DNA of 64,000 bases from Escherichia phage UPEC06, in sequence record MW250786, one strand, 5' to 3'. Made by a program: the position numbers and the translations under genes. The notes beneath the pieces are model-generated. The model was given only the letters and a program-made list of their open reading frames with translations, was not told the origin of the DNA and made no database searches. This document shows, piece by piece, positions 48,755 to 63,151 of this stretch; the stretch's first letter is position 1, and the number at the start of each line of letters is the position of its first letter.

Positions 48755-48947
48755 AGTATCGCCCTTTCTTCTGTTGTGCGCCCTGGTTGGCGCGGTAAAA
48801 AGACTATAAATGATCTTCCTTTATATAGCAAGGAAAAAGAAATTAAAAAAGATTAAAAATAATGTTGACGTAGTGAATCTGGTAGCGTAGTATTCATCTC
48901 ATCGAACGGCGACATGCCAACAAGTAAACAAATAAAAGGGCAACAAA

Positions 48948-49133
48948 ATGAATAAAAGAATTACAAACGTAAATCCTGGCGAACGTTTCCAACATGAGGG
49001 GCATTTGCACACTGTAGTAAGCAACAAGGAGCATACTGTAAGAGTTAATCGAAATATCTTGCAATTACGTGATCGTTTTGGTATCGTACAGACTTACACT
49101 TTCGAAGCAAATAAAACAGTTAAAACTTTCTGA
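48948..49133 (+). CDS. hypothetical small protein
   Basis: 61-aa ORF after TTGACG/TAGTAT promoter-like pair. Confidence 0.45.
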   Translation: MNKRITNVNPGERFQHEGHLHTVVSNKEHTVRVNRNILQLRDRFGIVQTYTFEANKTVKTF

Positions 49134-49144
49134 GGATTTTTAAA

Positions 49145-49480
49145 ATGGCACTAGTCACTAAGTATTTCATTGAAGGCCAGCAAGCGGCGCAACAAGGTTA
49201 CAGCCGTGTTACTCGTTACAAGAAAGAAGAAAACAAGGTTGAATTTTTCAAAGGGTATGACAGTGTAAACCGTGATGCAATGGTCCTACGCTTCGAATCC
49301 GATCCAGTGGGCAAGCCTGTTACCTCTTACCAGGCATCACCGCAGATTGTTTATGTGGGGACTGTTAAAGAATGCAACGACAAATTGATCACATTGAAAC
49401 AATCGGATCGTGCTGGTTACTTTGTTGTTTACACTGCCGATGGTAAGCCTTACCAGTACGAAAGCAAATATTTTAAATAA
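49145..49480 (+). CDS. hypothetical protein
   Basis: 111-aa ORF with RBS. Confidence 0.5.
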   Translation: MALVTKYFIEGQQAAQQGYSRVTRYKKEENKVEFFKGYDSVNRDAMVLRFESDPVGKPVTSYQASPQIVYVGTVKECNDKLITLKQSDRAGYFVVYTADGKPYQYESKYFK

Positions 49481-49486
49481 AAAGTA

Positions 49487-49543
49487 TTGACAGAAAGAAA
49501 GAAGTAGATTAAATTATACCACGTAACGCCGCAATCGTGCGGC
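49487..49543 (+). promoter_or_regulatory. promoter-stem-loop cassette (TTGACA-17-TAAATT + leader hairpin)
   Basis: -35 TTGACA, 17-nt spacer, -10 TAAATT, then GCCGCA-atcg-TGCGGC hairpin; approx coords. Confidence 0.6.
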
Positions 49544-49570
49544 AATAAAAACTGATAGGAATTGAACAAA

Positions 49571-49783
49571 ATGGCTAAAATCATCATTAAAAAATCCCGT
49601 GTATCTTCTGTTGCTCGCGTCGAAATGGTAAACACTATGCCAGGTTACCGGACTCGCGAGGAAGCCCGAAGCGTTGCAAAACAGATTAAAGCCCGTGGCT
49701 TAACTGTAAGTGCACCGACCAAAACACAAGAAGGATGGAAGGTATCTATTAAATCCGGTACACTGTCGATCAATAAACACTAA
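49571..49783 (+). CDS. hypothetical small basic protein
   Basis: Track ORF starts at TTG 49562; in-frame ATG 49571 follows RBS. Confidence 0.5.
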   Translation: MAKIIIKKSRVSSVARVEMVNTMPGYRTREEARSVAKQIKARGLTVSAPTKTQEGWKVSIKSGTLSINKH

Positions 49784-49846
49784 TAGCCAAAACATTAACG
49801 GGGCAAATTTGCCCCTCACTAAATAACATTATCCAGGAGTATTAAC

Positions 49847-50005
49847 ATGACTAGCCAAAACACTAACATTGAAAAAATCAACATTACGAAAGAGCGTAAA
49901 GCATGGAATGAAACATTGAATCTCAAAGGTAAGAAGCTGAATAAAACTAAACGCGATCGCAGTACAAAGCGGGCCTTTTGTGAATTTACAGCGGATCAAG
50001 AATGA
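49847..50005 (+). CDS. hypothetical small basic protein (below track cut-off)
   Basis: 52-codon ORF read by eye after GGGGCAAATTTGCCCC hairpin and GGAG RBS; stop overlaps next start. Confidence 0.35.
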   Translation: MTSQNTNIEKINITKERKAWNETLNLKGKKLNKTKRDRSTKRAFCEFTADQE

Positions 50006-50301
50006 TGATTAAAGTTATTGCACTTACTGCTTTATTGTGTATGCCGTTTTTGGCGCACGGTACTAAGTTTTACGGTGCTAACTTGATAGATTGTAAAGCT
50101 CATATGCTGGACCATGAAACAGGTAATAAATTTGTTAAGCCCTTCCAGATCAATCCGGCGGCATTTGTTGACGGTGTTTTATATCAGGAAGGTAAAGCCA
50201 CTACGCTGATAATGCACTATGATCCAACAACAAAGAAAGGTAGTCTATCAATCCAGGTTGGAGAGGTGGAAGAGTTTTCCGGTGAAATAGTCTGTAATTA
50301 A
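50002..50301 (+). CDS. secreted small protein
   Basis: 99 aa with N-terminal signal peptide MMIKVIALTALLCMPFLAHG. Confidence 0.5.
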   Translation: MMIKVIALTALLCMPFLAHGTKFYGANLIDCKAHMLDHETGNKFVKPFQINPAAFVDGVLYQEGKATTLIMHYDPTTKKGSLSIQVGEVEEFSGEIVCN

Positions 50302-50307
50302 TATCTT

Positions 50308-50339
50308 GAGGCCCGTCATTGTACGGGCCTTTTTCTTTT
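50308..50339 (+). terminator. Rho-independent terminator
   Basis: GAGGCCCGT-cattgt-ACGGGCCT hairpin plus TTTTCTTTT. Confidence 0.7.
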
Positions 50340-50549
50340 ATGAAAATAATATTGAAAATGTTGTTGACAGTGACAACAAAAAGCGTAGAATGTATCACAT
50401 CAGGACGGGGCAACATAAGTAGACAACTTGTAAGTCGTAAGAAAACCAAGTGACCGTCAAAAATAGCTTGAAATGAAACATAAATAGTAATAAGATACTT
50501 ACATCGAAGGCGGGAATATCTCCCGATTCACAAATAAGAGAGAAATATT

Positions 50550-50822
50550 ATGGCATCATATAGCGCAACAATGATCGTAACGGGCACAACTGGTAAACCT
50601 ATGAGCGGTGGCGGATCATTCGCTAACATCAATATTGACGGGCGTTTATCCCTGGATGCCGCGATCGCCGTAGCGCAAGAAACATTTAAGAAAGAATGTA
50701 TTTTCAACAAGCAAGAGTATCTAGGCTTCGCTATTGAGAAAACTACTCGTTTTGTTGACTATAACAACCCTTTGATGGTTGATACTAACCTAAAAGCGAA
50801 AGATGTAGATTTCTTATTGTAA
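50550..50822 (+). CDS. hypothetical protein
   Basis: 90-aa ORF after promoter-like TTGACA and CGGGA-atatc-TCCCG leader hairpin. Confidence 0.5.
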   Translation: MASYSATMIVTGTTGKPMSGGGSFANINIDGRLSLDAAIAVAQETFKKECIFNKQEYLGFAIEKTTRFVDYNNPLMVDTNLKAKDVDFLL

Positions 50823-50867: not shown

Positions 50868-50926
50868 TTGCAAAGTAATTAGATTAACGTATAATGTTTT
50901 ACATCGAGAGCGGCAATAGTGCCGCC
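50868..50926 (+). promoter_or_regulatory. promoter-stem-loop cassette (TTGCAA-16-TATAAT + GCGGCAATAGTGCCGC hairpin)
   Basis: Consensus -10 TATAAT with conserved leader hairpin ~15 nt downstream; approx coords. Confidence 0.6.
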
Positions 50927-50948: not shown

Positions 50949-51176
50949 ATGGCTATCCTTATTGTTCGTGTATCCGGTACAGTTGGTAACTCCCAAGTTG
51001 TGGCGGTTGTAACCAGCAAAAACATAAATGAGGCAAGCAATGTATTAAACAGATGGGCCGTTGCTAATTTTGGTGAGTGGTCAAGTGTTGAGTATATCGA
51101 ATCTTACCAGGTGCCAACTATTAGCCTAACCGATCTCAATGTTGATCGCTTGTTATGCCTGGATGAATTGATTTAA
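50949..51176 (+). CDS. hypothetical protein
   Basis: Start set to ATG 50949 (MAILIV) after RBS; track N-extension overlaps the hairpin. Confidence 0.5.
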   Translation: MAILIVRVSGTVGNSQVVAVVTSKNINEASNVLNRWAVANFGEWSSVEYIESYQVPTISLTDLNVDRLLCLDELI

Positions 51177-51260
51177 AAAGTAATTGCAAAGTAAGTCGAA
51201 TAAAGTATAATACATTACATCACGGGGAGAAATTATTATCCCCAGTAAGAGGAAACTAAA

Positions 51261-51404
51261 ATGAAAACTTGTCAGTGTGGTAAAAAGTCTATTGCTGGTC
51301 TGCGTCGCGGTGTTGCTTTATGCCAGTATCATTACAATACTCAAGTATGGGGTAAAATGTGGGCTGACCAGGTTGAAGCAGCAAAGAAAGCAAAAAATAG
51401 TTGA
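51261..51404 (+). CDS. hypothetical small Cys-containing protein (below track cut-off)
   Basis: 47-codon ORF read by eye after promoter/hairpin and GAGGA RBS. Confidence 0.35.
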   Translation: MKTCQCGKKSIAGLRRGVALCQYHYNTQVWGKMWADQVEAAKKAKNS

Positions 51405-51457
51405 CAGCAAGAAGAAAAAGAGTAAACTGTATTACGTAGGGCGGCAATAGCGCCGCC
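51401..51457 (+). promoter_or_regulatory. promoter-stem-loop cassette (TTGACA-16-TAAACT + GGGCGGCAATAGCGCCGCC hairpin)
   Basis: As other cassettes; approx coords. Confidence 0.55.
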
Positions 51458-51478: not shown

Positions 51479-51697
51479 ATGGCTAATATCCGCACCGTGT
51501 TAAAAAATGCAAAAGAAGTTTTATTTTCTGACGATGAATATTTTAATCGCAATATCAAAGGTGTTCGGAACATCGAGGACGTAAAGGATTTATTTGGAAT
51601 CAAAGGTAACGTATATCGTAAAGGATTGCACGGTAATAATTTTGAATATAAATTAGCTGATAGTGATTATAATTTTACACTAACAATCATTAGTTGA
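51479..51697 (+). CDS. hypothetical protein
   Basis: 72-aa ORF after cassette. Confidence 0.5.
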   Translation: MANIRTVLKNAKEVLFSDDEYFNRNIKGVRNIEDVKDLFGIKGNVYRKGLHGNNFEYKLADSDYNFTLTIIS

Positions 51698-51790
51698 AAG
51701 TTTTATCACAGCACTATTGACTTAAGCGGATAGTGCTGGAATAATAACTTTTATCAAGTACTACAAATCAAACAAAGAGAGAATACAATC

Positions 51791-52030: not shown

Positions 52031-52043
52031 AAAGAAAAAGTAG

Positions 52044-52100
52044 TTGACATAAACAAGCAAAACAAGTAAATTAATCACATCAAGCGGGGAATGGCCCCGC
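52044..52100 (+). promoter_or_regulatory. promoter-stem-loop cassette (GTAGTTGACA-17-TAAATT + GCGGGGAATGGCCCCGC hairpin)
   Basis: As other cassettes; approx coords. Confidence 0.6.
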
Positions 52101-52124
52101 TAAAAAAGAAGAGAGAGAAATCAA

Positions 52125-52460
52125 ATGGGCTTTTTATCTATCGTACAGGCTAACTTCGAAAATGATTTTATTGCTCAAGTTATCAACATTGACAAAGGTA
52201 TCCCAAATATCAATTTTGGTTTCAATAGTGGTGGTTATGAGAGATACCAGTATTTTGTAACTGACGATGGAAGTGTTTTAGGTATCAATACGGTGATGGC
52301 TAATATCCAAAACATTAATTTCAATGATCCCGATGAGCGCTCATTCTATATCGTCGGTGTCCAGGTGAACTACAATGATGACTCTTTAATCGATGATTAC
52401 ACTGGCGAGACGTTAGAAAGTGCTTACAGTGACGAATCAGAAGAAGAAGAAGAAGAATAA
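52125..52460 (+). CDS. hypothetical acidic protein
   Basis: 111 aa, C-terminal SDESEEEEEE. Confidence 0.5.
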   Translation: MGFLSIVQANFENDFIAQVINIDKGIPNINFGFNSGGYERYQYFVTDDGSVLGINTVMANIQNINFNDPDERSFYIVGVQVNYNDDSLIDDYTGETLESAYSDESEEEEEE

Positions 52461-52474: not shown

Positions 52475-52532
52475 TTGACTGAAAGACTACAAAGAAGTAA
52501 GATAATTAACGAATAGGGGGAACATCTCCCCC
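52475..52532 (+). promoter_or_regulatory. promoter-stem-loop cassette (GTAGTTGACT-17-TAAGAT + GGGGGAACATCTCCCCC hairpin)
   Basis: As other cassettes; approx coords. Confidence 0.6.
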
Positions 52533-52558: not shown

Positions 52559-52741
52559 ATGACAGAACTGATTGCAACTACAAAGATCGAAGGCGTTAAC
52601 GATGTTACTTTGTCCTATGATCCTTCTACTCTGGTTTATGTTGTGAAATATGGCAGAATGATCGCAGAACTTGATTGCATTGATGAGGCTTTCGAAAAAT
52701 ATTTCGAACTTATCAATATTGCTTATGATGACTACCGTTAA
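52559..52741 (+). CDS. hypothetical protein
   Basis: 60-aa ORF after cassette. Confidence 0.45.
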   Translation: MTELIATTKIEGVNDVTLSYDPSTLVYVVKYGRMIAELDCIDEAFEKYFELINIAYDDYR

Positions 52742-52981: not shown

Positions 52982-53045
52982 TTGACTTTTAACATTGCCC
53001 CTATTAGTATTCAGGGGCAAGATTAAAAGAAACAAGGACACAAAG

Positions 53046-53507: not shown

Positions 53508-53531
53508 AAGCCCATTATGTGGGCTTTTTCT
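53508..53531 (+). terminator. Rho-independent terminator
   Basis: AAGCCCA-ttatg-TGGGCTT hairpin plus TTTTCTT. Confidence 0.6.
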
Positions 53532-53545
53532 TATGGAGAACAGAC

Positions 53546-53773: not shown

Positions 53774-53858
53774 TTTAAAAAACTTCTTGCATCCATTATT
53801 GAGGGGGTGTATATTAGTTTCATCAAGACGAGATAAAGATAACCCAAAGGTGATTATT

Positions 53859-54152
53859 ATGTTATACGAAGTTTTTGCTGGATTTTGTTTTTATGGTGCT
53901 GCCGCCGTTCGCCAGTGTGATGATTATGTGGTTGAGTCATTTGATGATCCTTTGGCGTGTGAGATTGTTACTACGGCATACGAGCAAGATCGCCGTTGGA
54001 TTAATCCGGCCTGTATCGCATCGCCTGAGGTTGAACCTATGCCGGAAGGTGAGGAATTAACAGAGGAAGACTTGCAAGAAGTAAAAGAAGTTATGAGCTA
54101 CATGATTGATAATCTGGACGCTGAAAACTTACAACGTGCATTGCAAAAATAA
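53859..54152 (+). CDS. hypothetical acidic protein
   Basis: Start set to ATG 53859 (MLYEVF) after AAAGGTGA RBS. Confidence 0.45.
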   Translation: MLYEVFAGFCFYGAAAVRQCDDYVVESFDDPLACEIVTTAYEQDRRWINPACIASPEVEPMPEGEELTEEDLQEVKEVMSYMIDNLDAENLQRALQK

Positions 54153-54165
54153 TTTGAAAAAGTAG

Positions 54166-54223
54166 TTGACTGAAAGCAACAAAACAAGTAAATTATTCAC
54201 ATCAGGCGGGGAATGGCCCCGCC
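54166..54223 (+). promoter_or_regulatory. promoter-stem-loop cassette (GTAGTTGACT-17-TAAATT + GGCGGGGAATGGCCCCGCC hairpin)
   Basis: Near-identical to the cassette at 52044; approx coords. Confidence 0.6.
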
Positions 54224-54238: not shown

Positions 54239-54619
54239 ATGAAAATGGCTAAAAATACTAACGTTTGTGATTACGCTGACCTCGTTACTCTGAATGCAGA
54301 TTCTAAAATCAACTTGTCAGATGTGGAAGCGGTACACGTCCTGGCACGCCGTTGGTTCCAACAATCCTACGGTAATACATATTTTTCTTTAAGTGTAGAC
54401 GTGGAGATCGCTGGTAAATTGGTTGAAGTGGTTAGCGTGCCGTTCAAATATGGATATGGTGACCATTTCGATACCGTGGCACTGGAAGAATTTAGCAAGG
54501 TTATCAACCTGGAAGGAAAGGAGTTTTCAGAGTATAGTTACCTTTCCCGTTTTTGCCGTGACAATAACATCCCTGTTTATTCGAACGCTGTTGATGTTAA
54601 ACGCAAAAAAGATATGTGA
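54239..54619 (+). CDS. hypothetical protein
   Basis: 126-aa ORF after cassette (ATG 54239 or 54245). Confidence 0.5.
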   Translation: MKMAKNTNVCDYADLVTLNADSKINLSDVEAVHVLARRWFQQSYGNTYFSLSVDVEIAGKLVEVVSVPFKYGYGDHFDTVALEEFSKVINLEGKEFSEYSYLSRFCRDNNIPVYSNAVDVKRKKDM

Positions 54620-54706
54620 TTATTATTGACAGCACACAAAAAACAAGTAAATTGTATCACATAGAAAGCGGGAACACTTCCCGCTTATATCCTAAAGGTA
54701 AGAGAA

Positions 54707-54958
54707 ATGTTCGAACAAATCAAAACTACAACGGCTAACGTAACGGGTACAGTATCTCACTTCATTAGTGATGAATCGCGGGGCGTTCCTTATTGTGCGG
54801 TGCATGTAAACAAAAATGGCGACTACTGGTTAACGGCGTATGGATCTTATTCTTTCGGACGTAGTGCACACCAAAAGATCCTGGATAAAGTGCAGCCAAC
54901 GGGTAAAAATATTACCGCTGAAATGTTTAATAAATCACTTGCAAAGTTAAAAGCGTAA
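54707..54958 (+). CDS. hypothetical protein
   Basis: 83-aa ORF after TTGACA/TAAATT promoter and GCGGGAACACTTCCCGC hairpin. Confidence 0.5.
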   Translation: MFEQIKTTTANVTGTVSHFISDESRGVPYCAVHVNKNGDYWLTAYGSYSFGRSAHQKILDKVQPTGKNITAEMFNKSLAKLKA

Positions 54959-55259
54959 AGTATAATATATCACATCAGGCGGGGAGTGTTTCCCCGTCAC
55001 AAAATGAAAGGTTAACAAAATGAAAGCAAGCATGATGGTAGCGACTGTAAACATTATCATTGGTAACGGAACTGGACACCACGAAATCATAAAAAACAAG
55101 GCTTACTCTATTAGCTCCCTCAAAAACGACATGCGTTTATCTTTGGGCCAAATCCGCGCTTACTTTCGTGAAGGCTATCAGAAAAAAGTAGCAAATTAAT
55201 AGTTGACGCAAAGGTCATTTTAATTTAATCTATAACAAATCGACAAATGAGGCATAATC

Positions 55260-55723: not shown

Positions 55724-55794
55724 AAACTTGTTGACGTTGGCTTGTGCCGTACCTATAATGGACGGCATAGGCAAACGAAATAGGATTTATAGAA

Positions 55795-56001: not shown

Positions 56002-56391
56002 ATTGAGGTGTAAGGTGTATAAATTATTGGCCTGGGAAACAGAATCATCGTCACCGATCAGCCGGACCTTTTTTGATTTGTGCACGGCTTACAAGCTGGC
56101 AAAGGGAGGATATCATAAGGCCCAGATCATTGATGAATTTAATGTTATCCTTTATGAATTTTAATTAATTCATGCACTTAAAAGAAAGTTATAAAAAGTT
56201 TTAAAAAGTAGTTGCAACAAACATTGGGTAGTAGTATAGTACTTTCAACGGGGCGAGATAGCCCAAAACGAAAAAACTTGAAAGGTGATTATCATGATGG
56301 CAATTTTCTTAGTTTCTCTTCTGGTCGCTGTATGTTCTGCCACTGCTGCCGCTGTACTTTACGATACACGTTACAATGAGGAATAATAAAA

Positions 56392-56935: not shown

Positions 56936-56954
56936 GGCGGGAATAGTTCCCGCC
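56936..56954 (+). other. intercistronic leader stem-loop (GCGGGAA-tag-TTCCCGC) without promoter
   Basis: 8-bp GC-rich stem between stop of upstream ORF and RBS of next ORF; same family as promoter-linked hairpins. Confidence 0.5.
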
Positions 56955-57259: not shown

Positions 57260-57269
57260 GAGGTGATAA

Positions 57270-57533
57270 GTGGCCCTTTCAACAACAAATAAAGTAATTG
57301 GTGTTATCCCTGGGAGATCAATCAAGGTTGGCGATCTCATACGCTTACAAGTTGCTTCCTTTCCTGGTCCGGCTTATGATTTTTGTCATACCGTTGCGAT
57401 TCAAGAGAATCCGCATGATGTTAACCTCATGGTGATTTGGTACAAGCTGGCAAATGGTCAACTTTGCGAGGATATCATAGGGAAAGATGAGGCGTTCAAT
57501 ATTATGTACCAAAACGGCCCGCTAACGGCCTAA
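57270..57533 (+). CDS. hypothetical protein, paralogue of 59255-59482 product
   Basis: GTG start with AAGAGGTGA RBS; shared PxYDFC...VIWY...DIxGxDE pattern. Confidence 0.5.
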   Translation: MALSTTNKVIGVIPGRSIKVGDLIRLQVASFPGPAYDFCHTVAIQENPHDVNLMVIWYKLANGQLCEDIIGKDEAFNIMYQNGPLTA

Positions 57534-57630
57534 AACGGCGAAAGTATGCAATCACCTTACTTGATACTATTCTACGCCCTGGCTTATCCTGGGGCTTTTG
57601 ATTGGGGTAGAAAATAATTCGAAAAAGTAG

Positions 57631-57687
57631 TTGACGGCAATTAACACTATGGTAAAGTGTACCCCGTAGGGCGGCAATAGCGCCGCT
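57631..57687 (+). promoter_or_regulatory. promoter-stem-loop cassette (GTAGTTGACG + GGGCGGCAATAGCGCCGCT hairpin)
   Basis: As other cassettes; approx coords. Confidence 0.55.
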
Positions 57688-58045
57688 CACTGAAAAAGGG
57701 TAAAATCATGTTAGAAAAAATTTTCACGGTTGTAATCTTAGGTTTAACATTCTTTGTAGGAGTAACTGCAACGATGGCTAATATGATTTTATCTTTCAAT
57801 GGTATTGGTTAAGAGGAAACAACAAATGAAAACTTTCAACGCAACAGCCTCAACAATTGGCTATATTATTACAGTACAGGCCGTGGATCTGGTAGCGGCG
57901 GCAAACAAGATTAAAAAAATGATTCCGACAGATAGCAAATTTTCCGTATGGGAAGTCAAATAATCCTTGACAGTAATTTATTATCTGGTAAAGTCTATTA
58001 TGTAGGGCGGCAATAGTGCCGCTGATAACCGAAGAGAAACAACAA

Positions 58046-58219
58046 ATGATCCCAACTATCTTTTACATATCTCGCAAAGGCATCAACATCCATTGGATGG
58101 AAGATTTAGAGCAAGCTATAGAGTATGCCCGTGGTCGTGTCGCTATCGGCGGCGTAGATATCACCGTTACCGATGAGAACGGGATCGAGTATTATAACAG
58201 CGAAGAAGAAGACTACTAA
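58046..58219 (+). CDS. hypothetical small protein
   Basis: Start set to ATG 58046 (MIPTIF) after promoter, GGCGGCAATAGTGCCGC hairpin and RBS. Confidence 0.45.
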   Translation: MIPTIFYISRKGINIHWMEDLEQAIEYARGRVAIGGVDITVTDENGIEYYNSEEEDY

Positions 58220-58263
58220 TCAACAGGGCGGCAAGAATGCCGCCATATAAAGGAATAAATGAA

Positions 58264-58656: not shown

Positions 58657-58712
58657 TTGACAAGCTGAATCAACCTGATAAGATGTATCACATAGGGGCG
58701 ACAAGCGCCCCG
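58657..58712 (+). promoter_or_regulatory. promoter-stem-loop cassette (TTGACA-16-TAAGAT + GGGGCGACAAGCGCCCC hairpin)
   Basis: As other cassettes; approx coords. Confidence 0.55.
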
Positions 58713-58732: not shown

Positions 58733-59011
58733 ATGACCATCGCCAAATTATCCGCTGAAGAAATCGAACAAGTGTTAACTACTAACCTGGAACAATGGAA
58801 ACGTGAGGCAGATATACAATCAGCACAATGGCTTAACGAGAAGTTAACACCGGATGATCTGAGTAAGATTATAGATCCTCAATTCTATGAAGATATTCAC
58901 GACACGGCGTTATCCGTTGAGGATGTACTCGATAAGCATTACATTGCTACTGATTTGCAGGTTTACGGGCGTAAAAACTTTATTACTATTCACGACATTT
59001 ACAATAACTAA
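58733..59011 (+). CDS. hypothetical protein, paralogue of 56981-57259 product
   Basis: See 56981-57259. Confidence 0.55.
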   Translation: MTIAKLSAEEIEQVLTTNLEQWKREADIQSAQWLNEKLTPDDLSKIIDPQFYEDIHDTALSVEDVLDKHYIATDLQVYGRKNFITIHDIYNN

Positions 59012-59046
59012 GGGCGGCAACGCCCTACAACTAAAAGGGTAATATT

Positions 59047-59241
59047 ATGACGTTAGCAACATGTACCGGATCAAAAATTGCTTGCTTTGAGTTTATGGAA
59101 GACTACCACACGACCGCAATCACTAACCAATATATTACAGTGATCACGCGTGACGGTATCGCCTGGCATGTTCCGGTTTATGATGGGGATACCTATGAAG
59201 TCACCGATAGCGACGGCAATACAGCTATCTTTGTTGTCTAA
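59047..59241 (+). CDS. hypothetical protein
   Basis: 64-aa ORF after GGGCGGCAACGCCC hairpin and RBS. Confidence 0.45.
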   Translation: MTLATCTGSKIACFEFMEDYHTTAITNQYITVITRDGIAWHVPVYDGDTYEVTDSDGNTAIFVV

Positions 59242-59254
59242 GGGGGGAAACACT

Positions 59255-59482
59255 ATGCACAATAACATCATTACCGATCGTGCCGCTACTATGCGCCCTG
59301 GCGATCGGGCACGTTTACAGATCGGCGCTTATCCGTTCCCTACTTATGACTTTTGCAAAGTAACCGCTATCGAAAACAATCCGTTCGAACCTGATACCGT
59401 GATCGTATGGTATGAAGGAAGAGGTAATAAATTTGAAGACATTTTGGGGCGAGATGAGTTATTGAATATTCTACGTTATTAA
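59255..59482 (+). CDS. hypothetical protein, paralogue of 57270-57533 product
   Basis: Start set to ATG 59255 (MHNNII) after AAGGGGGG RBS. Confidence 0.5.
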   Translation: MHNNIITDRAATMRPGDRARLQIGAYPFPTYDFCKVTAIENNPFEPDTVIVWYEGRGNKFEDILGRDELLNILRY

Positions 59483-59600
59483 TCGCCGTCTAACAGCCTT
59501 AAGCCTGTTAAGCTATGCAACCCCCTACCTTGTCCAATCGTCGCGCCCTGGTTTATGCTGGGGCGTTCTACGTTACAGCAAAATAATTTTAAAAATACGC

Positions 59601-59659
59601 TTGACGCTCGCCAGGTGAGCGGGTATATTTTATCACGTAGGGCGGCAATAGTGCCGCTC
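59601..59659 (+). promoter_or_regulatory. promoter-stem-loop cassette (TTGACG-17-TATATT + GGGCGGCAATAGTGCCGCT hairpin)
   Basis: As other cassettes; approx coords. Confidence 0.6.
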
Positions 59660-59679
59660 ACTGAAAAAGGTAAATCAGC

Positions 59680-59871
59680 ATGAAAACTATCACCTATCTG
59701 GAATCGAATAATAAATTTTTTGCCCCTGTTGATGAAATCATCGAAGCCCTGGCAAACGGTGAGGGTGTAAATGGCTTGCCTCATGCTCAATTAGTCGGAC
59801 TTGTCAAGGCAAACAAAGAATTAGCCTACTATGTAGAAAACTTTGAAACAGCAGTTATATTTACAAAATAA
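59680..59871 (+). CDS. hypothetical protein
   Basis: 63-aa ORF after cassette. Confidence 0.45.
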   Translation: MKTITYLESNNKFFAPVDEIIEALANGEGVNGLPHAQLVGLVKANKELAYYVENFETAVIFTK

Positions 59872-59951
59872 AGGTTGTATTCATTCCGCAACTGGTTTAT
59901 ATTATTTGTGTAGGGCGGCAATAGTGCCGCTCACTGACTGGAGCTATCATT

Positions 59952-60353
59952 ATGGCCTTTACAATCACCTCTTACACTGACGTTGCCAACATTGCTAAAA
60001 CTTTCGGCCCTGAAGCCCTTAAGTATGCGGTATCCAATGGTAAACTAACGAAAGAGCAATGTTACCTGATTGGAAGCTGTAAACGTTGGGCGGCATCTCG
60101 TAACATCGAGATTGAAAACGTAAATGATGGTAACATCGAGTATAGCGTTGATGCAGTATTCAAGGCCGTGTATTTGGGCGGTATCTATAATACCAACCTT
60201 AATGATGTGCGTATCGTTCGCACTGGTTTTGGGGCTTATGATGTTCCAGTTCGCGAAGCTATGGAAAAAGGTTATATTAATCCAGCTATTTTAAGTATGA
60301 TCATGACTGAGGCCAAAGAACGTAACGAAGTACGGGCCATCCTGGGCCTGTAA
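59952..60353 (+). CDS. hypothetical protein
   Basis: 133-aa ORF after GTAGGGCGGCAATAGTGCCGCTCACTGA element. Confidence 0.5.
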   Translation: MAFTITSYTDVANIAKTFGPEALKYAVSNGKLTKEQCYLIGSCKRWAASRNIEIENVNDGNIEYSVDAVFKAVYLGGIYNTNLNDVRIVRTGFGAYDVPVREAMEKGYINPAILSMIMTEAKERNEVRAILGL

Positions 60354-60451
60354 TGAAATATTAACAGAAAACTATTGACACGGATCGTCAATATGCTAAT
60401 ATTTATCACGTAGGGCGGCAATGGTGCAGCCCACTGGAAAAGGTAAAAATC

Positions 60452-60697
60452 ATGTACCAGACAACTAAAATTGGCAATATCTATCACGATCCTAAAAACT
60501 CACGCGGTACAGCCTGGATCAAGATGCCCAACAACGTTTGGTACTATGCATTAAAAGGCAATACCTTGATGGGCAATCGTTGGAAGTGGATTAAAGAAAA
60601 TAACAACATTATTAACGATGAAAAAATCCAAGAAATGGTAGCAACGGGTAAGGTTGTAATGCAAGAAAACACCGACCGCCTTACTCGTCAATTTTAA
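60452..60697 (+). CDS. hypothetical protein
   Basis: 81-aa ORF after TTGACA promoter and degenerate hairpin. Confidence 0.45.
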   Translation: MYQTTKIGNIYHDPKNSRGTAWIKMPNNVWYYALKGNTLMGNRWKWIKENNNIINDEKIQEMVATGKVVMQENTDRLTRQF

Positions 60698-60706
60698 TAT
60701 CAATAA

Positions 60707-60722
60707 GGGGCGGCAACGCCCC
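60707..60722 (+). other. intercistronic stem-loop with GNRA-type loop (GGGGCG-GCAA-CGCCCC)
   Basis: 6-bp GC stem, GCAA tetraloop, between ORFs and upstream of RBS. Confidence 0.5.
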
Positions 60723-60952: not shown

Positions 60953-61209
60953 GCATTGCAATGTTAATTAATGCGGTAGAAGAGGCAAAAGCATTAAAGC
61001 TATGTGTTGAACTGATTGATCAACCAGGCGGCGATCTCCTTGTCCAAATTTATCCCCAAAAGGATTATTCTGGCGCTTATAGTTGGTGCTACTCTGACAC
61101 GTTCGGACAAGTAGACATTAAAGCAATAACATCGTTTATCAACAGGGCCATACTTGAGCAAACGATAGAGATTAACGGAATGTTAAAAACACCCTGGCAC
61201 ATTTACTAA
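60949..61209 (+). CDS. hypothetical protein
   Basis: 86-aa ORF, ATGA overlap. Confidence 0.45.
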   Translation: MSIAMLINAVEEAKALKLCVELIDQPGGDLLVQIYPQKDYSGAYSWCYSDTFGQVDIKAITSFINRAILEQTIEINGMLKTPWHIY

Positions 61210-61216
61210 GTTCGAT

Positions 61217-61246
61217 AAAAGGGCTTGACTTGTTCGGCCCTTTTTT
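61217..61246 (+). terminator. Rho-independent terminator
   Basis: AGGGC-loop-GCCCT stem followed by TTTTTT. Confidence 0.55.
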
Positions 61247-61385
61247 GCTATTCTTATCAAACGGGCGGCAACTGGGGACAGGGGAAGGTAATCACCGGAA
61301 GACTTTGGCATATACTGATAGTAAATAACTATTAATACTCACCAAAAATAAAATAAAATTTATTAAATCTTTACAATTCTACGTA

Positions 61386-61680
61386 TTGACACCGGATCAC
61401 CGTTATATTATTATTTATCTCGTAGGGCAGCGAAGCAGTGATGCAAAGTAGTTACTCTATGATGTAAGTTCTGAGAAGTCGAATCCGATAAAGTATCAGA
61501 AAGTTTCTAAGTTTTCGAATCGTCCAGATGAAAAAGGCTGGCAAGTGTTGAGAAAGGGCACGTTGAGTAAGTCCCGAAAAGGGGCGCTCTTAGACACCTT
61601 CTACTGAGATTGCGATCAAAGTGTTAAACTGTGAGAAACAAAAAGAGTACCAGGAAAGAAAAAAAAAAGTTAAAAAGATT
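61386..61680 (+). other. promoter-driven non-coding leader / candidate small RNA locus
   Basis: TTGACA-N17-TATTAT promoter-like pair, then ~250 nt with no ORF above ~10 codons before the next promoter at ~61684. Confidence 0.3.
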
Positions 61681-61755
61681 ATTGACACAAAAGTAAGTTT
61701 TGTACTATTATCTATCTCGTAGGGCAAACATTCAAAACATTAAAAAGGGTACAAA

Positions 61756-62031
61756 ATGTTACAGCTTAACGCTAAATTAGACAAAGAAATCACTGAGTTT
61801 TGGGATATGGTAGTAGCTACAGATGTAGACGGTGTAGCAAGTCCTTACCTCAATAACATCGAGTATCACAATGTTGCAGCTATGAATGCAGAATATGCAG
61901 AAGAAGGCGGCGCGGATAAGTTTGCTAAAAGCAACGGTTTCACTGATGCTAATGATATGATGCAATCAGTATTGTGGCAAGCCCAGGAAGATTTTGAAGA
62001 AAAAACACTTGAATTCGCCAGACGTTCATAA
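61756..62031 (+). CDS. hypothetical acidic protein
   Basis: 91-aa ORF after TTGACA-N-TATTAT promoter-like pair. Confidence 0.5.
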   Translation: MLQLNAKLDKEITEFWDMVVATDVDGVASPYLNNIEYHNVAAMNAEYAEEGGADKFAKSNGFTDANDMMQSVLWQAQEDFEEKTLEFARRS

Positions 62032-62086
62032 TAGAATAATCAAACGGGCCGAGAGGCCCACTAACTGACCTAACAGGATTAATATC

Positions 62087-62356
62087 ATGAATCGCATCGA
62101 TCAGCTTAAAGTAGTTCAGCATATGGCTTACCGTATCCTTGAAGTCCAGAAGGGTAGCAAAAAAGAAGTATGCGAGAAAGCGTACAAGGTATTCAGCCAT
62201 AAATCTGACGATTGGAAATTACAGAAAGTTAAAAAGGCCGATATCCTGGGCTACCTTGAGGATGAGATCCGCCTTGCGGAGCAAAAACAGATTCGTCGTG
62301 ATGAGGCAGAACATAACCAGGCCTGGCAGGAGTGGTTTAAAGGGTATACTAAGTAA
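62087..62356 (+). CDS. hypothetical protein
   Basis: 89-aa ORF with RBS. Confidence 0.5.
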   Translation: MNRIDQLKVVQHMAYRILEVQKGSKKEVCEKAYKVFSHKSDDWKLQKVKKADILGYLEDEIRLAEQKQIRRDEAEHNQAWQEWFKGYTK

Positions 62357-62487
62357 TACTAAAACAGGGGCCATATGGCCCCTTTGTAAATATCCAATTA
62401 ATTTACAATTCTCCCTATTGACAGGCTAGTCAGTTTTGCACTATAGTTAAGTTCCTGGCAGCAAACAACAAAACAAAGGACAACAGC

Positions 62488-62907
62488 ATGAACATCAAAT
62501 CAAATAATCCGGCATACTCTTTCGATAACGCTTTTTGTCACGGTAGCGCCGCCAAAGGTTTTGAAATTGATGGTAAACTGGTTATCGTCAATGTTGATGG
62601 GGAAGAGGTTGCAGTTTATCCAGTGGCAGACGTTAAAAGCCGTTTACAGTGCCGCATGGACGTTAACGAATATCGCCTTGATCCGGTTCGTGTAGTTGCC
62701 TTAGTCCTGGAAGAAGAAATTAAAGCAATGCAGCATAGCAACAAGTTTATCGGTGATGCACAGGACAACATGAAAGTAAGCCGCCACAAAGTTAATGAAG
62801 CACTGAAAGATTTTGGCTTTAAAGACCTAGTTATTAAACGTGATGAAAAATTCCGCTTTCGTAATGATCTGGCAAATCGCTACTATGAAATCTATGAAGC
62901 ACTTTAA
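62488..62907 (+). CDS. hypothetical protein
   Basis: 139-aa ORF after TTGACA promoter-like site. Confidence 0.5.
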   Translation: MNIKSNNPAYSFDNAFCHGSAAKGFEIDGKLVIVNVDGEEVAVYPVADVKSRLQCRMDVNEYRLDPVRVVALVLEEEIKAMQHSNKFIGDAQDNMKVSRHKVNEALKDFGFKDLVIKRDEKFRFRNDLANRYYEIYEAL

Positions 62908-62920
62908 GAGGTAAGACAAC

Positions 62921-62947
62921 AAAGGGCCGCTATTGCGGCCTTTATTA
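62921..62947 (+). terminator. Rho-independent terminator ending the small-ORF array
   Basis: AAAGGGCCGC-tatt-GCGGCCTTT hairpin plus TTTATTAT. Confidence 0.65.
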
Positions 62948-63151
62948 TATCCATCGGCGTGACTCTCCCAACTCTATTAATCCCCTCCCTCATTTGGATC
63001 ATCCTACTCTATCCAACCCTTCTAACTTACTTTACCCATCAATCTAATCAGCTTCCTGAATCTCTCCTATAAAAATCAAAACTAACCTGATAGCTTACCA
63101 CAACAAAACACACAAAGAAAGAACTATTTTGCCCACAAAGAAAGCAGTTTT

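What the first reader, a model, noticed from the sequence alone, without database searches (positions are those of the whole stretch)
48860..62950. Array of at least 12 promoter-stem-loop cassettes driving more than 40 small ORFs
Across ~14 kb of + strand, small ORFs (mostly 45-140 aa) are preceded by a recurring unit: an A-rich tract, (GTAG)TTGAC(A/T/G), a 16-17-nt spacer, a -10 hexamer (TAAATT, TATAAT, TAAGAT or TATATT), about 8-12 nt (often CACATCA or CGTA), a GC-rich perfect hairpin, an A-rich spacer, then RBS and ATG. Clear copies are near 49487, 50868, 51401, 52044, 52475, 54166, 54625, 54941, 57631, 57966, 58657, 59601 and 60374. This matches in architecture the promoter-early stem-loop (PeSL) cassettes described in T4-type phages, yet this phage has T7-type replication genes. 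Several cargo proteins are membrane peptides or secreted, and none has a recognisable function.
Basis: partly seen in the sequence, partly recalled or inferred. Interest (0 to 1): 0.7.

Follow-up and report, generated by a model that had tools for sequence, protein, structure and literature searches.

The report
Phage early-gene promoter-hairpin cassette array
This is the early-gene region of an rV5-like E. coli phage, where some 44 tiny genes of unknown function are mostly driven by a repeated unit (a strong host-type promoter followed at once by a transcribed GC hairpin); that unit also marks where single genes are gained, lost and swapped between phages, which is a variant of cassettes known from T4-like phages and not a new kind of system.

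Summary
All 13 listed copies exist, and there are at least 17 promoter-plus-downstream-hairpin cassettes on the + strand between 49.4 and 60.5 kb. A combined pattern scan finds 15, against 0.03 expected from shuffles and none on the same strand in the other 48.9 kb. About 44 ORFs of 30-139 aa follow them.

The phage belongs to Vequintavirinae (rV5-like). Sigma-70-type early promoters in front of small ORFs are already described for this subfamily; I found no description of the regular hairpin.

The hairpin starts 10-14 nt after the -10 hexamer, so it should be the first structure of each mRNA, with 0-5 unpaired 5' nt. Stem sequences differ between copies but pairing is kept, and no U-tract follows. 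I read it as an RNA boundary and stability element.

Gene-sized indels against close relatives have their breakpoints in the hairpins, with 10-37 nt junction repeats. The same cassettes, and 16 of the ORFs in scrambled order, occur in the terminal repeat of a jumbo Asteriusvirus; the cassettes also occur in a Phapecoctavirus.

The PeSL comparison is partly right. The components and the gene shuffling match. In phage RB49, checked directly, the stem-loop lies inside the promoter, upstream of the transcription start. Verdict: a new variant of a known kind, of moderate interest. The function of the hairpin is inferred, not shown.

The parts
48860..62950 (+). Early-gene array: about 44 small ORFs (30-139 aa) on the + strand, with promoters, hairpins and a few canonical terminators in the gaps
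   Evidence: About 93% identical to Vequintavirinae phages LTH01, A73 and A5-4.
49487..49543 (+). Cassette: TTGACA-17-TAAATT, then hairpin GCCGCAatcgTGCGGC (49528-49543); gene 49571-49783
   Evidence: 5' UTR MFE -10.8 kcal/mol, z -2.15
50468..50525 (+). Cassette: TTGAAA-17-TAAGAT, then hairpin CGGGAatatcTCCCG; gene 50550-50822
50868..50925 (+). Cassette: TTGCAA-16-TATAAT, then hairpin GCGGCAatagTGCCGC; gene 50949-51176
   Evidence: 40.3 bits; z -4.0
51184..51243 (+). Cassette: TTGCAA-16-TATAAT, then a degenerate hairpin GGGGAgaaattattaTCCCC (a perfect 8-bp stem in relatives and in the jumbo phage); gene 51261-51404
51401..51457 (+). Cassette: TTGACA-16-TAAACT, then hairpin GGCGGCaatagcGCCGCC; gene 51479-51697. 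The TGA inside TTGACA is the stop codon of the upstream gene.
   Evidence: z -3.6
52044..52101 (+). Cassette: TTGACA-17-TAAATT, then hairpin AGCGGGGaatggCCCCGCT; gene 52125-52460
52475..52532 (+). Cassette: TTGACT-17-TAAGAT, then hairpin GGGGGAacatcTCCCCC; gene 52559-52741
54166..54223 (+). Cassette: TTGACT-17-TAAATT, then hairpin GGCGGGGaatggCCCCGCC; gene 54239-54619
   Evidence: MFE -16.1 kcal/mol
54626..54686 (+). Cassette: TTGACA-16-TAAATT, then hairpin AAGCGGGAAcacTTCCCGCTT; gene 54707-54958
54939..54996 (+). Cassette: TTGCAA-16-TATAAT (inside the end of the upstream ORF), then hairpin CGGGGAgtgttTCCCCG; gene 55020-55199
56212..56264 (+). Cassette with a weak hairpin: TTGCAA-17-TATAGT, then GGGCgagataGCCC; gene 56294-56386
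   Evidence: z -1.6
57631..57686 (+). Cassette: TTGACG-16-TAAAGT, then GUAGGGCGGCAAUAGCGCCGCUCAC, which pairs from the first predicted transcribed nucleotide; gene 57708-57812
57967..58022 (+). Cassette: TTGACA-16-TAAAGT, then hairpin GCGGCAatagTGCCGC; gene 58046-58219
58657..58711 (+). Cassette: TTGACA-16-TAAGAT, then hairpin GGGGCGacaagCGCCCC; gene 58733-59011
   Evidence: The same cassette occurs in Phapecoctavirus nepoznato (L007 position 7888).
59601..59657 (+). Cassette: TTGACG-17-TATATT, then hairpin GCGGCAatagTGCCGC; gene 59680-59871 (found only in this phage)
   Evidence: z -4.1
59875..59930 (+). Cassette: TTGTAT-17-TATATT, then hairpin GCGGCAatagTGCCGC; gene 59952-60353. It forms a direct repeat with the previous cassette, flanking the unique gene.
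60375..60433 (+). Cassette: TTGACA-16-TAATAT, then hairpin GGGCGGCAatggTGCAGCCC (one mismatch); gene 60452-60697
51709..51745 (+). PeSL-type unit: stem-loop CAGCACTA...TAGTGCTG enclosing the -35 hexamer of promoter TTGACT-17-AATAAT; no downstream hairpin
   Evidence: (a spurious mir-1000 match reflects this hairpin)
52982..53020 (+). PeSL-type unit: TTGACT-17-TAGTAT with stem-loop TTGCCCCT...AGGGGCAA over the -10 hexamer
55731..55767 (+). PeSL-type unit: TTGACG-17-TATAAT with stem-loop TGCCGT...ACGGCA over the -10 hexamer
61217..61254 (+). Canonical terminator (GGGC...GCCC followed by T6) lying in the spacer of a promoter-like site (TTGACT-18-TATTCT)
   Evidence: (sequence)
48865..48893 (+). 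First promoter of the array (TTGACG-17-TAGTAT); no hairpin
50364..50391 (+). Promoter TTGACA-16-TAGAAT after terminator 50308; followed by an ORF-less leader of about 70 nt, then cassette 50468
53787..53815 (+). Promoter TTGCAT-17-TATATT without hairpin; gene 53859-54152
61386..61414 (+). Promoter TTGACA-17-TATTAT. Its transcript starts CGTAGGGCAGC (the 5' half of the cassette motif) and is followed by about 300 nt with no credible ORF.
61682..61711 (+). Promoter TTGACA-18-TATTAT without hairpin; gene 61756-62031
62418..62447 (+). Promoter TTGACA-18-TATAGT without hairpin, after terminator-like hairpin 62366; gene 62488-62907
49800..49815 (+). Intergenic hairpin without promoter or U-tract (GGGGCAaattTGCCCC)
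56936..56954 (+). Intergenic hairpin without promoter (GGCGGGAAtagTTCCCGCC)
58227..58244 (+). Intergenic hairpin without promoter (GGCGGCAagaaTGCCGCC); an indel breakpoint against A73
59011..59026 (+). Intergenic hairpin without promoter (AGGGCGgcaaCGCCCT); an indel breakpoint against A5-4
60707..60722 (+). Intergenic hairpin without promoter (GGGGCGgcaaCGCCCC); borders a gene replacement against A73 and A5-4
62046..62059 (+). Intergenic hairpin without promoter (GGGCCgagaGGCCC)
50308..50339 (+). Canonical intrinsic terminator (9-bp stem followed by TTTCTTTT)
53508..53534 (+). Canonical intrinsic terminator
57576..57603 (+). Canonical intrinsic terminator just upstream of cassette 57631
62366..62391 (+). 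Terminator-like hairpin followed by TTGTAAAT
62925..62948 (+). Terminator closing the array (GGCCGCtattGCGGCC followed by TTTATTAT)

Best explanation
The region is the early ('host-takeover') gene array of a Vequintavirinae phage.

Most of its small genes carry their own compact expression cassette. Each cassette has a UP-like A-tract (which usually overlaps the stop codon of the gene before it), a near-consensus sigma-70 promoter read by unmodified host RNA polymerase, a conserved start context (tatCAC|A/G), a GC-rich hairpin at about +3 to +25 of the transcript, then an unstructured A-rich leader with the Shine-Dalgarno sequence about 20 nt further on.

The anatomy is shown. The next steps are inferred. 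The hairpin acts at the RNA level as a boundary and stability element. On the cassette's own mRNA it is a 5'-terminal stem-loop that hinders RppH and RNase E, both of which need a single-stranded 5' end. On read-through RNA from upstream it is a 3'-proximal barrier or attenuator. It is not a classical intrinsic terminator.

At the DNA level (shown by comparison) the repeated 20-40 bp cassette cores are substrates for recombination. This adds, deletes or replaces single genes and lets gene cassettes move between unrelated E. coli myoviruses. The array therefore behaves like the PeSL cassettes of T4-like phages, but with the stem-loop moved into the transcribed leader.
For: Anatomy and significance:
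- 15 promoter-plus-hairpin units against 0.03 expected from shuffles, all on the + strand of the array.
- 20 of 22 covariance-model matches fall there.
- Among strong promoters, 11 of 18 in the array have a stable downstream fold against 3 of 36 elsewhere in the window, p = 7e-5.

Fixed geometry tied to the transcription start (46 cassettes from three phage lineages):
- The gap from the -10 hexamer to the stem has mode 12 nt (range 8-15).
- A pyrimidine-purine start dinucleotide lies 7-8 nt after the -10 in most of the 46 (43 at the 8th nt or nearer; CA or CG in 40).
- Predicted unpaired 5' nucleotides number 0-6.
- The distance from hairpin to ATG is mostly 17-27 nt.
- All 17 predicted window 5' UTRs fold into one 5'-proximal hairpin (-8.3 to -16.1 kcal/mol; z -1.3 to -4.1) and leave the SD region open.

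Pairing is conserved, sequence is not:
- 28 distinct 5' arms and 24 distinct loops.
- On a MAFFT alignment 78.5% of cells are paired, against 68.5% when shuffled and 45-62% when slid; the covariation score is 0.363 against 0.195, reached by 0 of 500 shuffles; one pair splits 18 C-G to 18 G-C.
- Between orthologues, changes are loop-only (18), G-U (14) or compensatory (3), with 7 disruptive changes, mostly at terminal or innermost pairs.

Not terminators: a mean of 1.5 T in the 8 nt after the stem, against 4-7 T for six canonical terminators in the same array.

Principle of 5' protection: RppH and RNase E need single-stranded 5' ends, which explains the long-known stabilising effect of 5' secondary structures (PMC3997798).

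Recombination role:
- 18 indel or replacement events against four relatives give 36 breakpoints. Ten lie in hairpins, which make up 5% of the sequence, and 27 lie outside coding sequence, which makes up 29%.
- Junctions overlap by 10-37 nt, meaning direct repeats flank the indels.
- The unique gene 59680-59871 lies between two identical hairpin repeats.

Cross-lineage spread:
- The same cassettes occur in Phapecoctavirus nepoznato (13 copies) and in the 21.5-kb terminal repeat of the jumbo Asteriusvirus vB_Ec-M-J (18 on the + strand, 0 on the - strand).
- 16 of 44 ORFs have homologues there in scrambled order. One is 90% identical at the amino-acid level to the jumbo-phage copy but only 52% to its paralogue in the window.
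Against: - No transcription start, RNA end or half-life has been measured. The transcription start is inferred from promoter geometry only.
- With 4-6 unpaired nucleotides, some copies would exceed the 2-4 nt limit that I recall from the ompA work for efficient 5' protection.
- Folding energies of the two strands do not differ significantly (mean -0.43 kcal/mol, p = 0.11), so the sequence itself does not show which strand carries the function.
- About a third of strong promoters in these arrays, and half in the jumbo phage, have no hairpin at all, so the hairpin is not essential for early expression.
- Six hairpins stand without a promoter. Four promoters carry the stem-loop inside the promoter. 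In those cases the 5'-protection role cannot apply.
- PeSL stem-loops of similar G-then-C design reduced downstream lacZ expression as much as rrnB T1 did (PMC2839356), so attenuation cannot be dismissed.
- Breakpoints at hairpins may only reflect that these are the longest repeats available.
Confidence: 0.55

Rival explanations
1. The hairpins are transcription terminators or attenuators, as proposed for PeSLs. Each one stops or damps read-through from the upstream unit so that every small gene is expressed only from its own promoter. The position just after the next promoter is incidental, forced by the UP element filling the space before the -35 hexamer.
For: - PeSL stem-loops have the same G-then-C design, and one reduced lacZ expression as strongly as rrnB T1 (PMC2839356).
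- Hairpins also occur in six gaps without any promoter, directly after stop codons.
- Four promoters carry the stem-loop inside the promoter, as in RB49.
- In the window, promoters preceded by a canonical terminator or an overlapping stem-loop mostly lack the downstream hairpin (manual reading; one search lists them).
Against: - No U-tract follows: 1.5 T of 8 nt, against 4-7 T for the six true terminators the phage uses in the same array.
- A terminator at +25 would also stop the transcripts of its own promoter.
- The tight spacing to the -10 hexamer (mode 12 nt) is not needed for a terminator.
- The mutual-exclusion trend is not significant across six loci (odds ratio 0.41, p = 0.15).
Confidence: 0.2
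2. The hairpin, or the palindrome in double-stranded DNA, is a binding site for a protein. Candidates are an RNA-binding regulator or antitermination factor loaded on the nascent leader (as with lambda N and boxB), or a DNA operator centred near +12 through which a phage factor shuts off all early promoters together.
For: - The position at +3 to +25 is where operators such as lacO, and nascent-RNA loading sites, lie (own knowledge).
- One sub-family (GTAGGGCGGCAATRGYGCCGC) is nearly invariant within and between phage lineages.
- Strand asymmetry does not exclude a DNA-level role.
Against: - Stem and loop sequences differ widely between copies driven by equivalent promoters: 28 arms, 24 loops, and covarying pairs such as 18 C-G to 18 G-C. 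This is the signature of a structure, not of a sequence-specific site.
- There is no boxA-like partner motif.
- No Rfam family matches.
- Many early promoters lack the element.
Confidence: 0.1
3. The hairpins have no role in expression. They are selfish or neutral GC-rich palindromic repeats that spread together with the promoter cassettes by duplication and recombination, and they persist because they promote exchange.
For: - Breakpoints are concentrated in them.
- Cassette cores are near-identical between neighbours, which suggests duplication or gene conversion.
- They are dispensable at many promoters.
Against: - Pairing is maintained through divergence, with loop-biased and pairing-preserving substitutions.
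- Geometry relative to the -10 hexamer and to the ATG is held in three phage lineages while the intervening sequence diverges.
- All copies lie on the transcribed strand orientation, in intergenic leaders only.
Confidence: 0.1

Closest known systems
PeSL (promoter-early stem-loop) cassettes of T4-like phages RB49/phi1, PST/T4 and nt-1/KVP40 (Arbiol et al. 2010, PMC2839356; Comeau et al. 2014, PMC4122927)
   Same: - A sigma-70-like early promoter with an AT-rich upstream tract that overlaps the previous stop codon.
- A G-then-C stem-loop.
- Dense arrays in a hyperplastic region of small ORFs of unknown function.
- Gene-sized indels between close relatives bounded by the cassettes.
- The promoter context is also alike: RB49 has AAAAAGTTGTTGACA ... 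CACATC, the window has AAAAAGTAGTTGACA ... CACATCA.
   Different: - In RB49 the stem-loop lies in the -35/-10 spacer or over the -10 hexamer (9 of the 11 with a stem-loop detected). It is therefore not part of the cassette's own transcript, and it is assigned a terminator role.
- Here it lies at a fixed site downstream of the start (17 units), with only 4 PeSL-type units.
- The host phage belongs to Vequintavirinae, not Straboviridae.
- Mini-circle formation and terminator activity are untested.
5'-terminal stabilising stem-loops of E. coli mRNAs (ompA, papA; Emory, Bouvet and Belasco 1992, cited through PMC3997798)
   Same: A simple hairpin within a few nucleotides of the 5' end. Its position and pairing matter and its sequence does not, which is the pattern seen here.
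   Different: Those are single, experimentally tested cases in cellular mRNAs. Here there is a repeated, portable unit fused to a promoter. The function is inferred only, and some copies leave 5-6 unpaired nucleotides.
Phage T7 class III promoter leaders (the phi10 5' stem-loop used in pET vectors) and the T7 early-region RNase III sites (own knowledge)
   Same: Phage promoters followed at once by a 5'-terminal hairpin, and intercistronic hairpins that delimit and stabilise individual early mRNAs.
   Different: T7 phi10 is read by the phage's own polymerase. The T7 early hairpins are long RNase III substrates. The stems here (5-9 bp) are too short for RNase III, and the promoters are of host sigma-70 type.
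Published sigma-70-like early promoters of Vequintavirinae (rV5: 33 promoters, PMC3606486; Certrevirus CB7/CR3: AAAA(N3)TGTTGAC(N19)TATAAT concentrated in the small-ORF region, PMC7344957)
   Same: The same subfamily, the same kind of promoter with a UP-like tract, and the same concentration in the region of short hypothetical ORFs.
   Different: In the passages I searched by keyword (promoter, stem, hairpin, terminator), neither paper mentions a regular promoter-proximal hairpin, its fixed geometry, or a role of the units in gene shuffling. I did not read the papers in full.

Membership tests
PeSL cassettes (T4-like phages) | [quoted passage not shown] | tested here: met
   17 cassettes with TTGACA/TTGCAA, a 16-17 nt spacer and TAnnnT. 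The upstream 25 nt are 75% A+T and 50% A. Stop codons lie 3-17 nt before, or inside, the -35 hexamer.
PeSL cassettes (T4-like phages) | Stable stem-loop, often poly-G followed by poly-C, within the unit | tested here: met
   GC-rich perfect stems of 5-9 bp. The 5' arm is 85% purine. MFE is -8 to -16 kcal/mol.
PeSL cassettes (T4-like phages) | Stem-loop placed inside or over the promoter (between -35 and -10, over either box, in the AT-rich region, or just before the start), so upstream of the transcribed leader | tested here: not met
   In RB49, 9 of 11 detected stem-loops lie in the spacer or over the -10 hexamer (authors' description). In the window, 17 units have the stem-loop 10-14 nt after the -10, downstream of the predicted start. 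Only 4 units are of the RB49 type.
PeSL cassettes (T4-like phages) | Concentrated in hyperplastic regions of small ORFs of unknown function | tested here: met
   About 44 ORFs of 30-139 aa. The 10 largest have no Pfam match at its cut-off and match only PHROG families of unknown function, apart from one weak second match (1.1e-08) to a PHROG labelled DNA ligase. Gene content varies between relatives that are 93% identical.
PeSL cassettes (T4-like phages) | Cassettes flank insertions, deletions and replacements that distinguish close relatives | tested here: met
   Of 36 breakpoints, 10 lie in hairpins (5% of the sequence), 6 in promoters and 5 in RBS regions. Junction repeats are 10-37 nt long.
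PeSL cassettes (T4-like phages) | Stem-loop terminates or attenuates transcription; recombination between cassettes yields mini-circles | not testable with these tools
   Needs reporter assays and inverse PCR on infected cells. The sequence shows no U-tract.
5'-terminal stabilising stem-loop (ompA type) | Hairpin no more than a few (2-4) unpaired nucleotides from the 5' end of the mRNA | tested here: inconclusive
   With the start placed at the conserved C|A/G 7-8 nt after the -10 hexamer, unpaired 5' nucleotides number 0-6 (median 4) across 46 cassettes and 0-5 in the 17 window UTRs. The start itself is predicted, not mapped.
5'-terminal stabilising stem-loop (ompA type) | Pairing matters, sequence does not | tested here: met
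   28 different arms and 24 different loops. Pairing and covariation exceed the shuffled and slid controls. Substitutions between orthologues preserve pairing.
5'-terminal stabilising stem-loop (ompA type) | Lengthens mRNA half-life in an RppH- or RNase E-dependent way | not testable with these tools
   Needs half-life measurements. The principle is cited from PMC3997798.
Rho-independent (intrinsic) terminator | GC-rich hairpin followed directly by a U-rich tract on the transcribed strand | tested here: not met
   23 hairpins have a mean of 1.5 T in the next 8 nt. Six canonical terminators in the same array have 4-7 T. The terminator scan flags none of the cassette hairpins on the + strand.
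Lambdoid nut/boxB or HK022 put antitermination RNA | Conserved hairpin loop sequence with a boxA partner (nut), or a two-stem structure of about 70 nt (put), downstream of an early promoter | tested here: not met
   Loops are not conserved (24 variants). The element is a single short stem. No Rfam match at E <= 1 other than two chance-level hits.
Vequintavirinae early region | Nucleotide similarity and synteny with classified members | tested here: met
   81-88% coverage at 92.5-94.2% identity to LTH01, A73, A5-4 and A7_1. LTH01, A73, A5-4 and W70 are classified as Vequintavirinae.

The most novel reading that the evidence does not exclude
The promoter-plus-5'-hairpin unit is a portable 'self-marking' expression module shared by at least three unrelated groups of large E. 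coli myoviruses: Vequintavirinae, Stephanstirmvirinae, and jumbo Asteriusvirus, where it fills the terminal repeat that enters the cell first. The hairpin works like a cap that keeps early phage mRNAs alive while the phage accelerates RNase E-dependent decay of host mRNA; rV5 is reported to encode an Srd homologue. The same module is the unit by which single anti-host genes are traded between these phages.
Probability: 0.2. Interest if true: 0.65.

Novelty: new variant of a known kind. Interest (0 to 1): 0.4.

Why it matters
If the reading holds, it extends the PeSL idea (regulatory cassettes that double as recombination modules) from T4-like phages to rV5-like, phAPEC8-like and jumbo coliphages. 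It also shows a second layout in which the stem-loop becomes the 5' end of the mRNA.

It gives a simple rule for finding early transcription units and the boundaries of exchangeable gene cassettes in several hundred therapeutic-candidate phage genomes that are annotated only as 'hypothetical protein'.

It points to about 44 small early genes, many shared across lineages, as candidates for host-takeover or anti-defence functions.

The compact unit of about 100 bp (UP element, promoter, 5' hairpin, leader) could also serve as a ready-made strong expression part for E. coli.

Tried and rejected
- Rfam scan of 46-64 kb at E <= 1: only two chance-level hits (mir-1000 and Trp leader, both far below their gathering scores), so no known RNA family.
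- tRNA scan of the window: none.
- Strand-of-function test by comparing + and - strand folding energies and G-U counts: not decisive (p = 0.11; more G-U pairs on the - strand because of its U-rich flanks).
- Test for 'one stem-loop per intergenic gap', meaning mutual exclusion of a downstream hairpin and an upstream or overlapping hairpin or terminator. This would favour an insulator role. There is a trend in the window, but it is not significant across six loci (odds ratio 0.41, p = 0.15).
- Literature searches for a described promoter-proximal hairpin, or for mapped transcription starts, in Vequintavirinae, Stephanstirmvirinae or Asteriusvirus: nothing found. The library holds only open-access papers, so absence there is not proof.
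- Exact-pattern scan of IMG/VR for the GTAGGGCGGCAATRGYGCCGC sub-family: 11 matches in 7 stretches on 5 contigs, most of them on two phage contigs of about 150 kb, so this sub-type is narrowly distributed.
- Pfam and PHROG searches on the 10 largest ORFs gave no function.
- A link to an Srd-like RNase E activator was considered. rV5 gp11 is called an Srd homologue in PMC3606486, but no such gene was identified among the 10 flanking ORFs scanned, so it stays a lead only.
- RNase III processing sites were rejected because the stems are only 5-9 bp.
- A dsDNA operator was judged unlikely because the half-sites covary instead of being conserved.
- Technical note: loci fetched in parallel did not all reach the script machine, so A5-4 and W70 were fetched again.

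Full report
**What the window is.** The 14-kb stretch matches Escherichia phages vB_EcoM-LTH01, A73, A5-4 and A7_1 over 81-88% of its length at 92.5-94.2% identity. LTH01, A73, A5-4 and W70 are classified as Vequintavirinae (rV5-like myoviruses of 137-145 kb), and every gene under the match is annotated 'hypothetical protein'. To the left the window carries a PolA-type DNA polymerase, a Dda-like helicase, an ATPase and an HNH endonuclease. To the right of 62,950 lies about 1 kb of non-coding DNA with short repeats. There are no tRNA genes.

**Check of the observation.** Seventeen units have a sigma-70-like promoter (TTGACA or TTGCAA, 16-17 nt, TAnnnT) followed 10-14 nt later by a perfect GC-rich hairpin.
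- The combined pattern occurs 15 times on the + strand of the array. The mean in 100 dinucleotide-preserving shuffles is 0.03. It occurs 0 times on the + strand of the other 48.9 kb and once on each - strand.
- Among promoters scoring at least 10 of 12, 11 of 18 in the array have a downstream fold of -8 kcal/mol or better, against 3 of 36 elsewhere in the window (Fisher p = 7e-5).
- A covariance model built from cassettes of several phages gives 22 matches in the window. Twenty are on the + strand between 49.5 and 60.7 kb, including copies that were not in the seed alignment.
- I count about 44 credible ORFs of 30-139 aa.

The upstream 25 nt are 50% A, against 34% for the array, with consensus AAAAAGTAG before TTGAC. 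Six or seven promoters have no hairpin, and four have a stem-loop that overlaps the promoter (51709-51745, 52982-53020, 55731-55767, 61217-61254). Six similar hairpins stand in intergenic gaps without a promoter.

**Anatomy.** After the -10 hexamer comes a conserved tatCAC followed by A or G. In 46 cassettes from three phages, a pyrimidine-purine step lies 7-8 nt after the -10 in most (43 at the 8th nt or nearer; CA or CG in 40). That is where E. coli RNA polymerase would be expected to start.
- With that start, the stem begins after 0-6 unpaired nucleotides (median 4).
- In the sub-family GUAGGGCGGCAAUAGYGCCGCUCAC, the very first nucleotides pair with the CAC that follows the stem.
- All 17 predicted 5' UTRs of the window fold into a single 5'-proximal hairpin (-8.3 to -16.1 kcal/mol; z -1.3 to -4.1; 12 of 17 at or below -2.1). 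The A-rich leader and the Shine-Dalgarno region stay unpaired.
- The hairpin-to-ATG distance is mostly 17-27 nt.

The whole 5' UTR of about 45 nt therefore has a fixed layout.

**Structure or sequence.** The stems differ widely: 28 different 5' arms and 24 loops in 46 cassettes.
- On a plain MAFFT alignment of 47 promoter-anchored leaders, 78.5% of cells form pairs. The shuffled control gives 68.5% and the slid controls 45-62%. The covariation score is 0.363 against 0.195 (0 of 500 shuffles reach it). One pair splits 18 C-G to 18 G-C. The sequences were chosen for a stable fold, so the percentage paired is biased upward; the register and slide controls are not.
- Between orthologous hairpins of the window and four close relatives, 24 are identical and 18 differ only in the loop. 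Stem changes are 14 G-U, 3 compensatory and 7 disruptive, the last mostly at terminal or innermost pairs.

This is the pattern of a selected single-strand structure, not of a sequence-specific protein site. Which strand carries the function cannot be read from the sequence: the + strand folds are only 0.43 kcal/mol more stable on average (p = 0.11). The purine-then-pyrimidine polarity of the arms is the same on both strands of a palindrome, so it does not help either.

**Not classical terminators.** The 23 hairpins have on average 1.5 T in the 8 nt after the stem. The six canonical terminators in the same array (50308, 53508, 57576, 61217, 62366, 62925) have 4-7 T. The phage uses U-tracts where it terminates, so the cassette hairpins are a different class.

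**Comparison with relatives.** Against A73, LTH01, A5-4 and W70 there are 18 indel or replacement events of 200-1,900 nt, plus one 7.8-kb deletion in W70 that fuses two ORFs.
- Of the 36 breakpoints, 10 fall in hairpins (5% of the sequence), 6 in promoters, 5 in RBS regions, 6 in other intergenic DNA and 9 in coding sequence (71% of the sequence). Some events are shared between relatives, so they are not all independent.
- In 10 of the 18 events the two flanks overlap by 10-37 nt in the relative, meaning the indel is bounded by direct repeats in the window.
- Examples: 59664|59910 is a 28-nt repeat made of the shared hairpin; it removes gene 59680-59871, which is found in none of the six loci compared. 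57686|58227 removes three genes. 60422|60693 marks a gene replacement between two hairpins.

**Spread beyond the subfamily.** A sensitive search found 325 phage records with partial matches.
- Phapecoctavirus nepoznato (Stephanstirmvirinae) carries 13 cassettes of the same design and partly the same sequence.
- The 21.5-kb direct terminal repeat of the 378-kb Asteriusvirus vB_Ec-M-J carries 18, all on one strand.
- Sixteen of the 44 window ORFs have homologues in that jumbo-phage repeat, in a different order. ORF 58733-59011 is 90% identical to the jumbo-phage protein but 52% to its paralogue at 56981 in the window.
- Nucleotide homology tracts with these phages are single-gene sized (100-550 nt) and often end in promoter, hairpin or RBS elements.
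- Across six loci, 72 of 110 distinct strong-promoter leaders fold at -10 kcal/mol or better within 36 nt.

**Most likely mechanism.** The shown part is an array of compact units with a host-type promoter and a transcribed, position-fixed, pairing-conserved hairpin, and these units coincide with recombination junctions. The inferred part is what the hairpin does. RppH and RNase E both need a single-stranded 5' end, which is the accepted reason why 5' secondary structures stabilise E. coli mRNAs (PMC3997798). In the ompA work (as I recall it) the position within 2-4 nt of the end mattered and the sequence did not. That matches fixed geometry with free sequence. Because hairpins also occur without promoters and inside promoters, I describe the element more broadly as an RNA boundary: 5' protection for the unit's own mRNA, and a 3'-proximal barrier or attenuator for RNA arriving from upstream. 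I give this combined reading 0.55.

The main rival, at 0.2, is attenuation or termination as claimed for PeSLs; a PeSL stem-loop reduced lacZ as strongly as rrnB T1. In its favour, window promoters that follow a true terminator or carry an overlapping stem-loop tend to lack the downstream hairpin. That trend is not significant across six loci (odds ratio 0.41, p = 0.15). A protein-binding site and a purely DNA-level repeat get 0.1 each.

**Comparison with what is known.** PeSLs (PMC2839356, PMC4122927) share the promoter type, the AT-rich tract overlapping the stop codon, the G-then-C stem-loop, the setting among small ORFs of unknown function, and the role in indels. They differ in where the stem-loop sits. 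I tested this on RB49 itself (locus L017). Of 16 strong promoters in ORFs 185-211, 11 have a detectable stem-loop: 7 in the -35/-10 spacer (from -24 to about -6 relative to the end of the -10), 2 over the -10, and 2 downstream, of which only one is a small G-then-C hairpin like those in the window. The RB49 promoters also share AAAAAGTTGTTGACA and the CACATC start context with the window units, which may reflect a common optimum for E. coli RNA polymerase.

For Vequintavirinae, sigma-70-like early promoters in the small-ORF region are published (rV5, 33 promoters; Certrevirus). In the passages I searched by keyword, neither paper mentions a promoter-proximal hairpin, and further searches found no such description and no mapped transcription starts for these phages. 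I file the finding as a new variant of a known kind: PeSL-like cassettes in other phage lineages, with the stem-loop moved into the transcribed leader.

**Verdict.** The feature is real, highly non-random and correctly described. The PeSL interpretation is partly right. Arrays of early promoters in front of small genes are ordinary for large virulent phages, so the surprise is modest. The new points are the fixed 5' hairpin, the breakpoints in it, and the sharing of cassettes and genes with Phapecoctavirus and jumbo Asteriusvirus phages. Interest is 0.4.

Noticed in passing
window 61210-61755: About 545 nt with no credible ORF, conserved at about 90% in A73, LTH01 and A5-4. It holds a terminator and two strong promoters (61386, 61682) whose transcripts begin with the cassette motif CGTAGGGCA but lack the hairpin. 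It may encode a non-coding RNA.
   Followed up: partly
window 62950-64000: A non-coding stretch after the array with short direct repeats (ATTGCCAGAGTATGG twice, 427 nt apart; ACACAAAGAGGCYGTA twice; TGGAGTCGCTCC twice) and a 21-nt inverted repeat at 63200/63282. It may be a genome end, a packaging site or an origin region.
   Followed up: partly
window 56981-57700 and 58733-59680: A segmental duplication inside the array: a 92-aa gene, an 87/75-aa gene, a hairpin or terminator, and a cassette. The paralogues are 52% and 41% identical. The second copy carries an extra 64-aa gene, and its 92-aa gene is 90% identical to a jumbo Asteriusvirus protein, which suggests recent import.
   Followed up: partly
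window 50364-50467: A strong promoter directly after a terminator drives an ORF-less leader of about 70 nt that runs into the next cassette. In relatives and in the jumbo phage the equivalent leader forms a larger hairpin (ACGGGGA...TCCCCGT).
   Followed up: no
L005 (phage W70) 8323-8335, equivalent to window 54954 joined to 62787: W70 has lost 7.8 kb of the array through a deletion that fuses the 83-aa ORF to the end of the 139-aa ORF. Half of the array is therefore dispensable for plaque formation on K-12.
   Followed up: partly
window cassettes with GTAGTTGAC (e.g. 52035-52049, 54157-54171, 57622-57636): The UP/-35 consensus TAAAAAGTAGTTGAC carries TAA, TAG and TGA in three different frames. 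Any ORF joined upstream of a cassette would therefore be closed. Gene 51261-51404 ends on the TGA inside TTGACA.
   Followed up: no
L009 (Asteriusvirus vB_Ec-M-J) e.g. 10360, 12024, 14018, 17293, 20049: Some promoters in the jumbo-phage terminal repeat are followed by a different recurring motif (AGCCCACAGGGTGC) in place of the GC hairpin. This motif does not occur in the window.
   Followed up: no
window 40253-43095; L007 1-2385: An ATPase gene followed by a large HNH endonuclease gene lies a few kb upstream of the early array, both in this phage and in Phapecoctavirus nepoznato.
   Followed up: no
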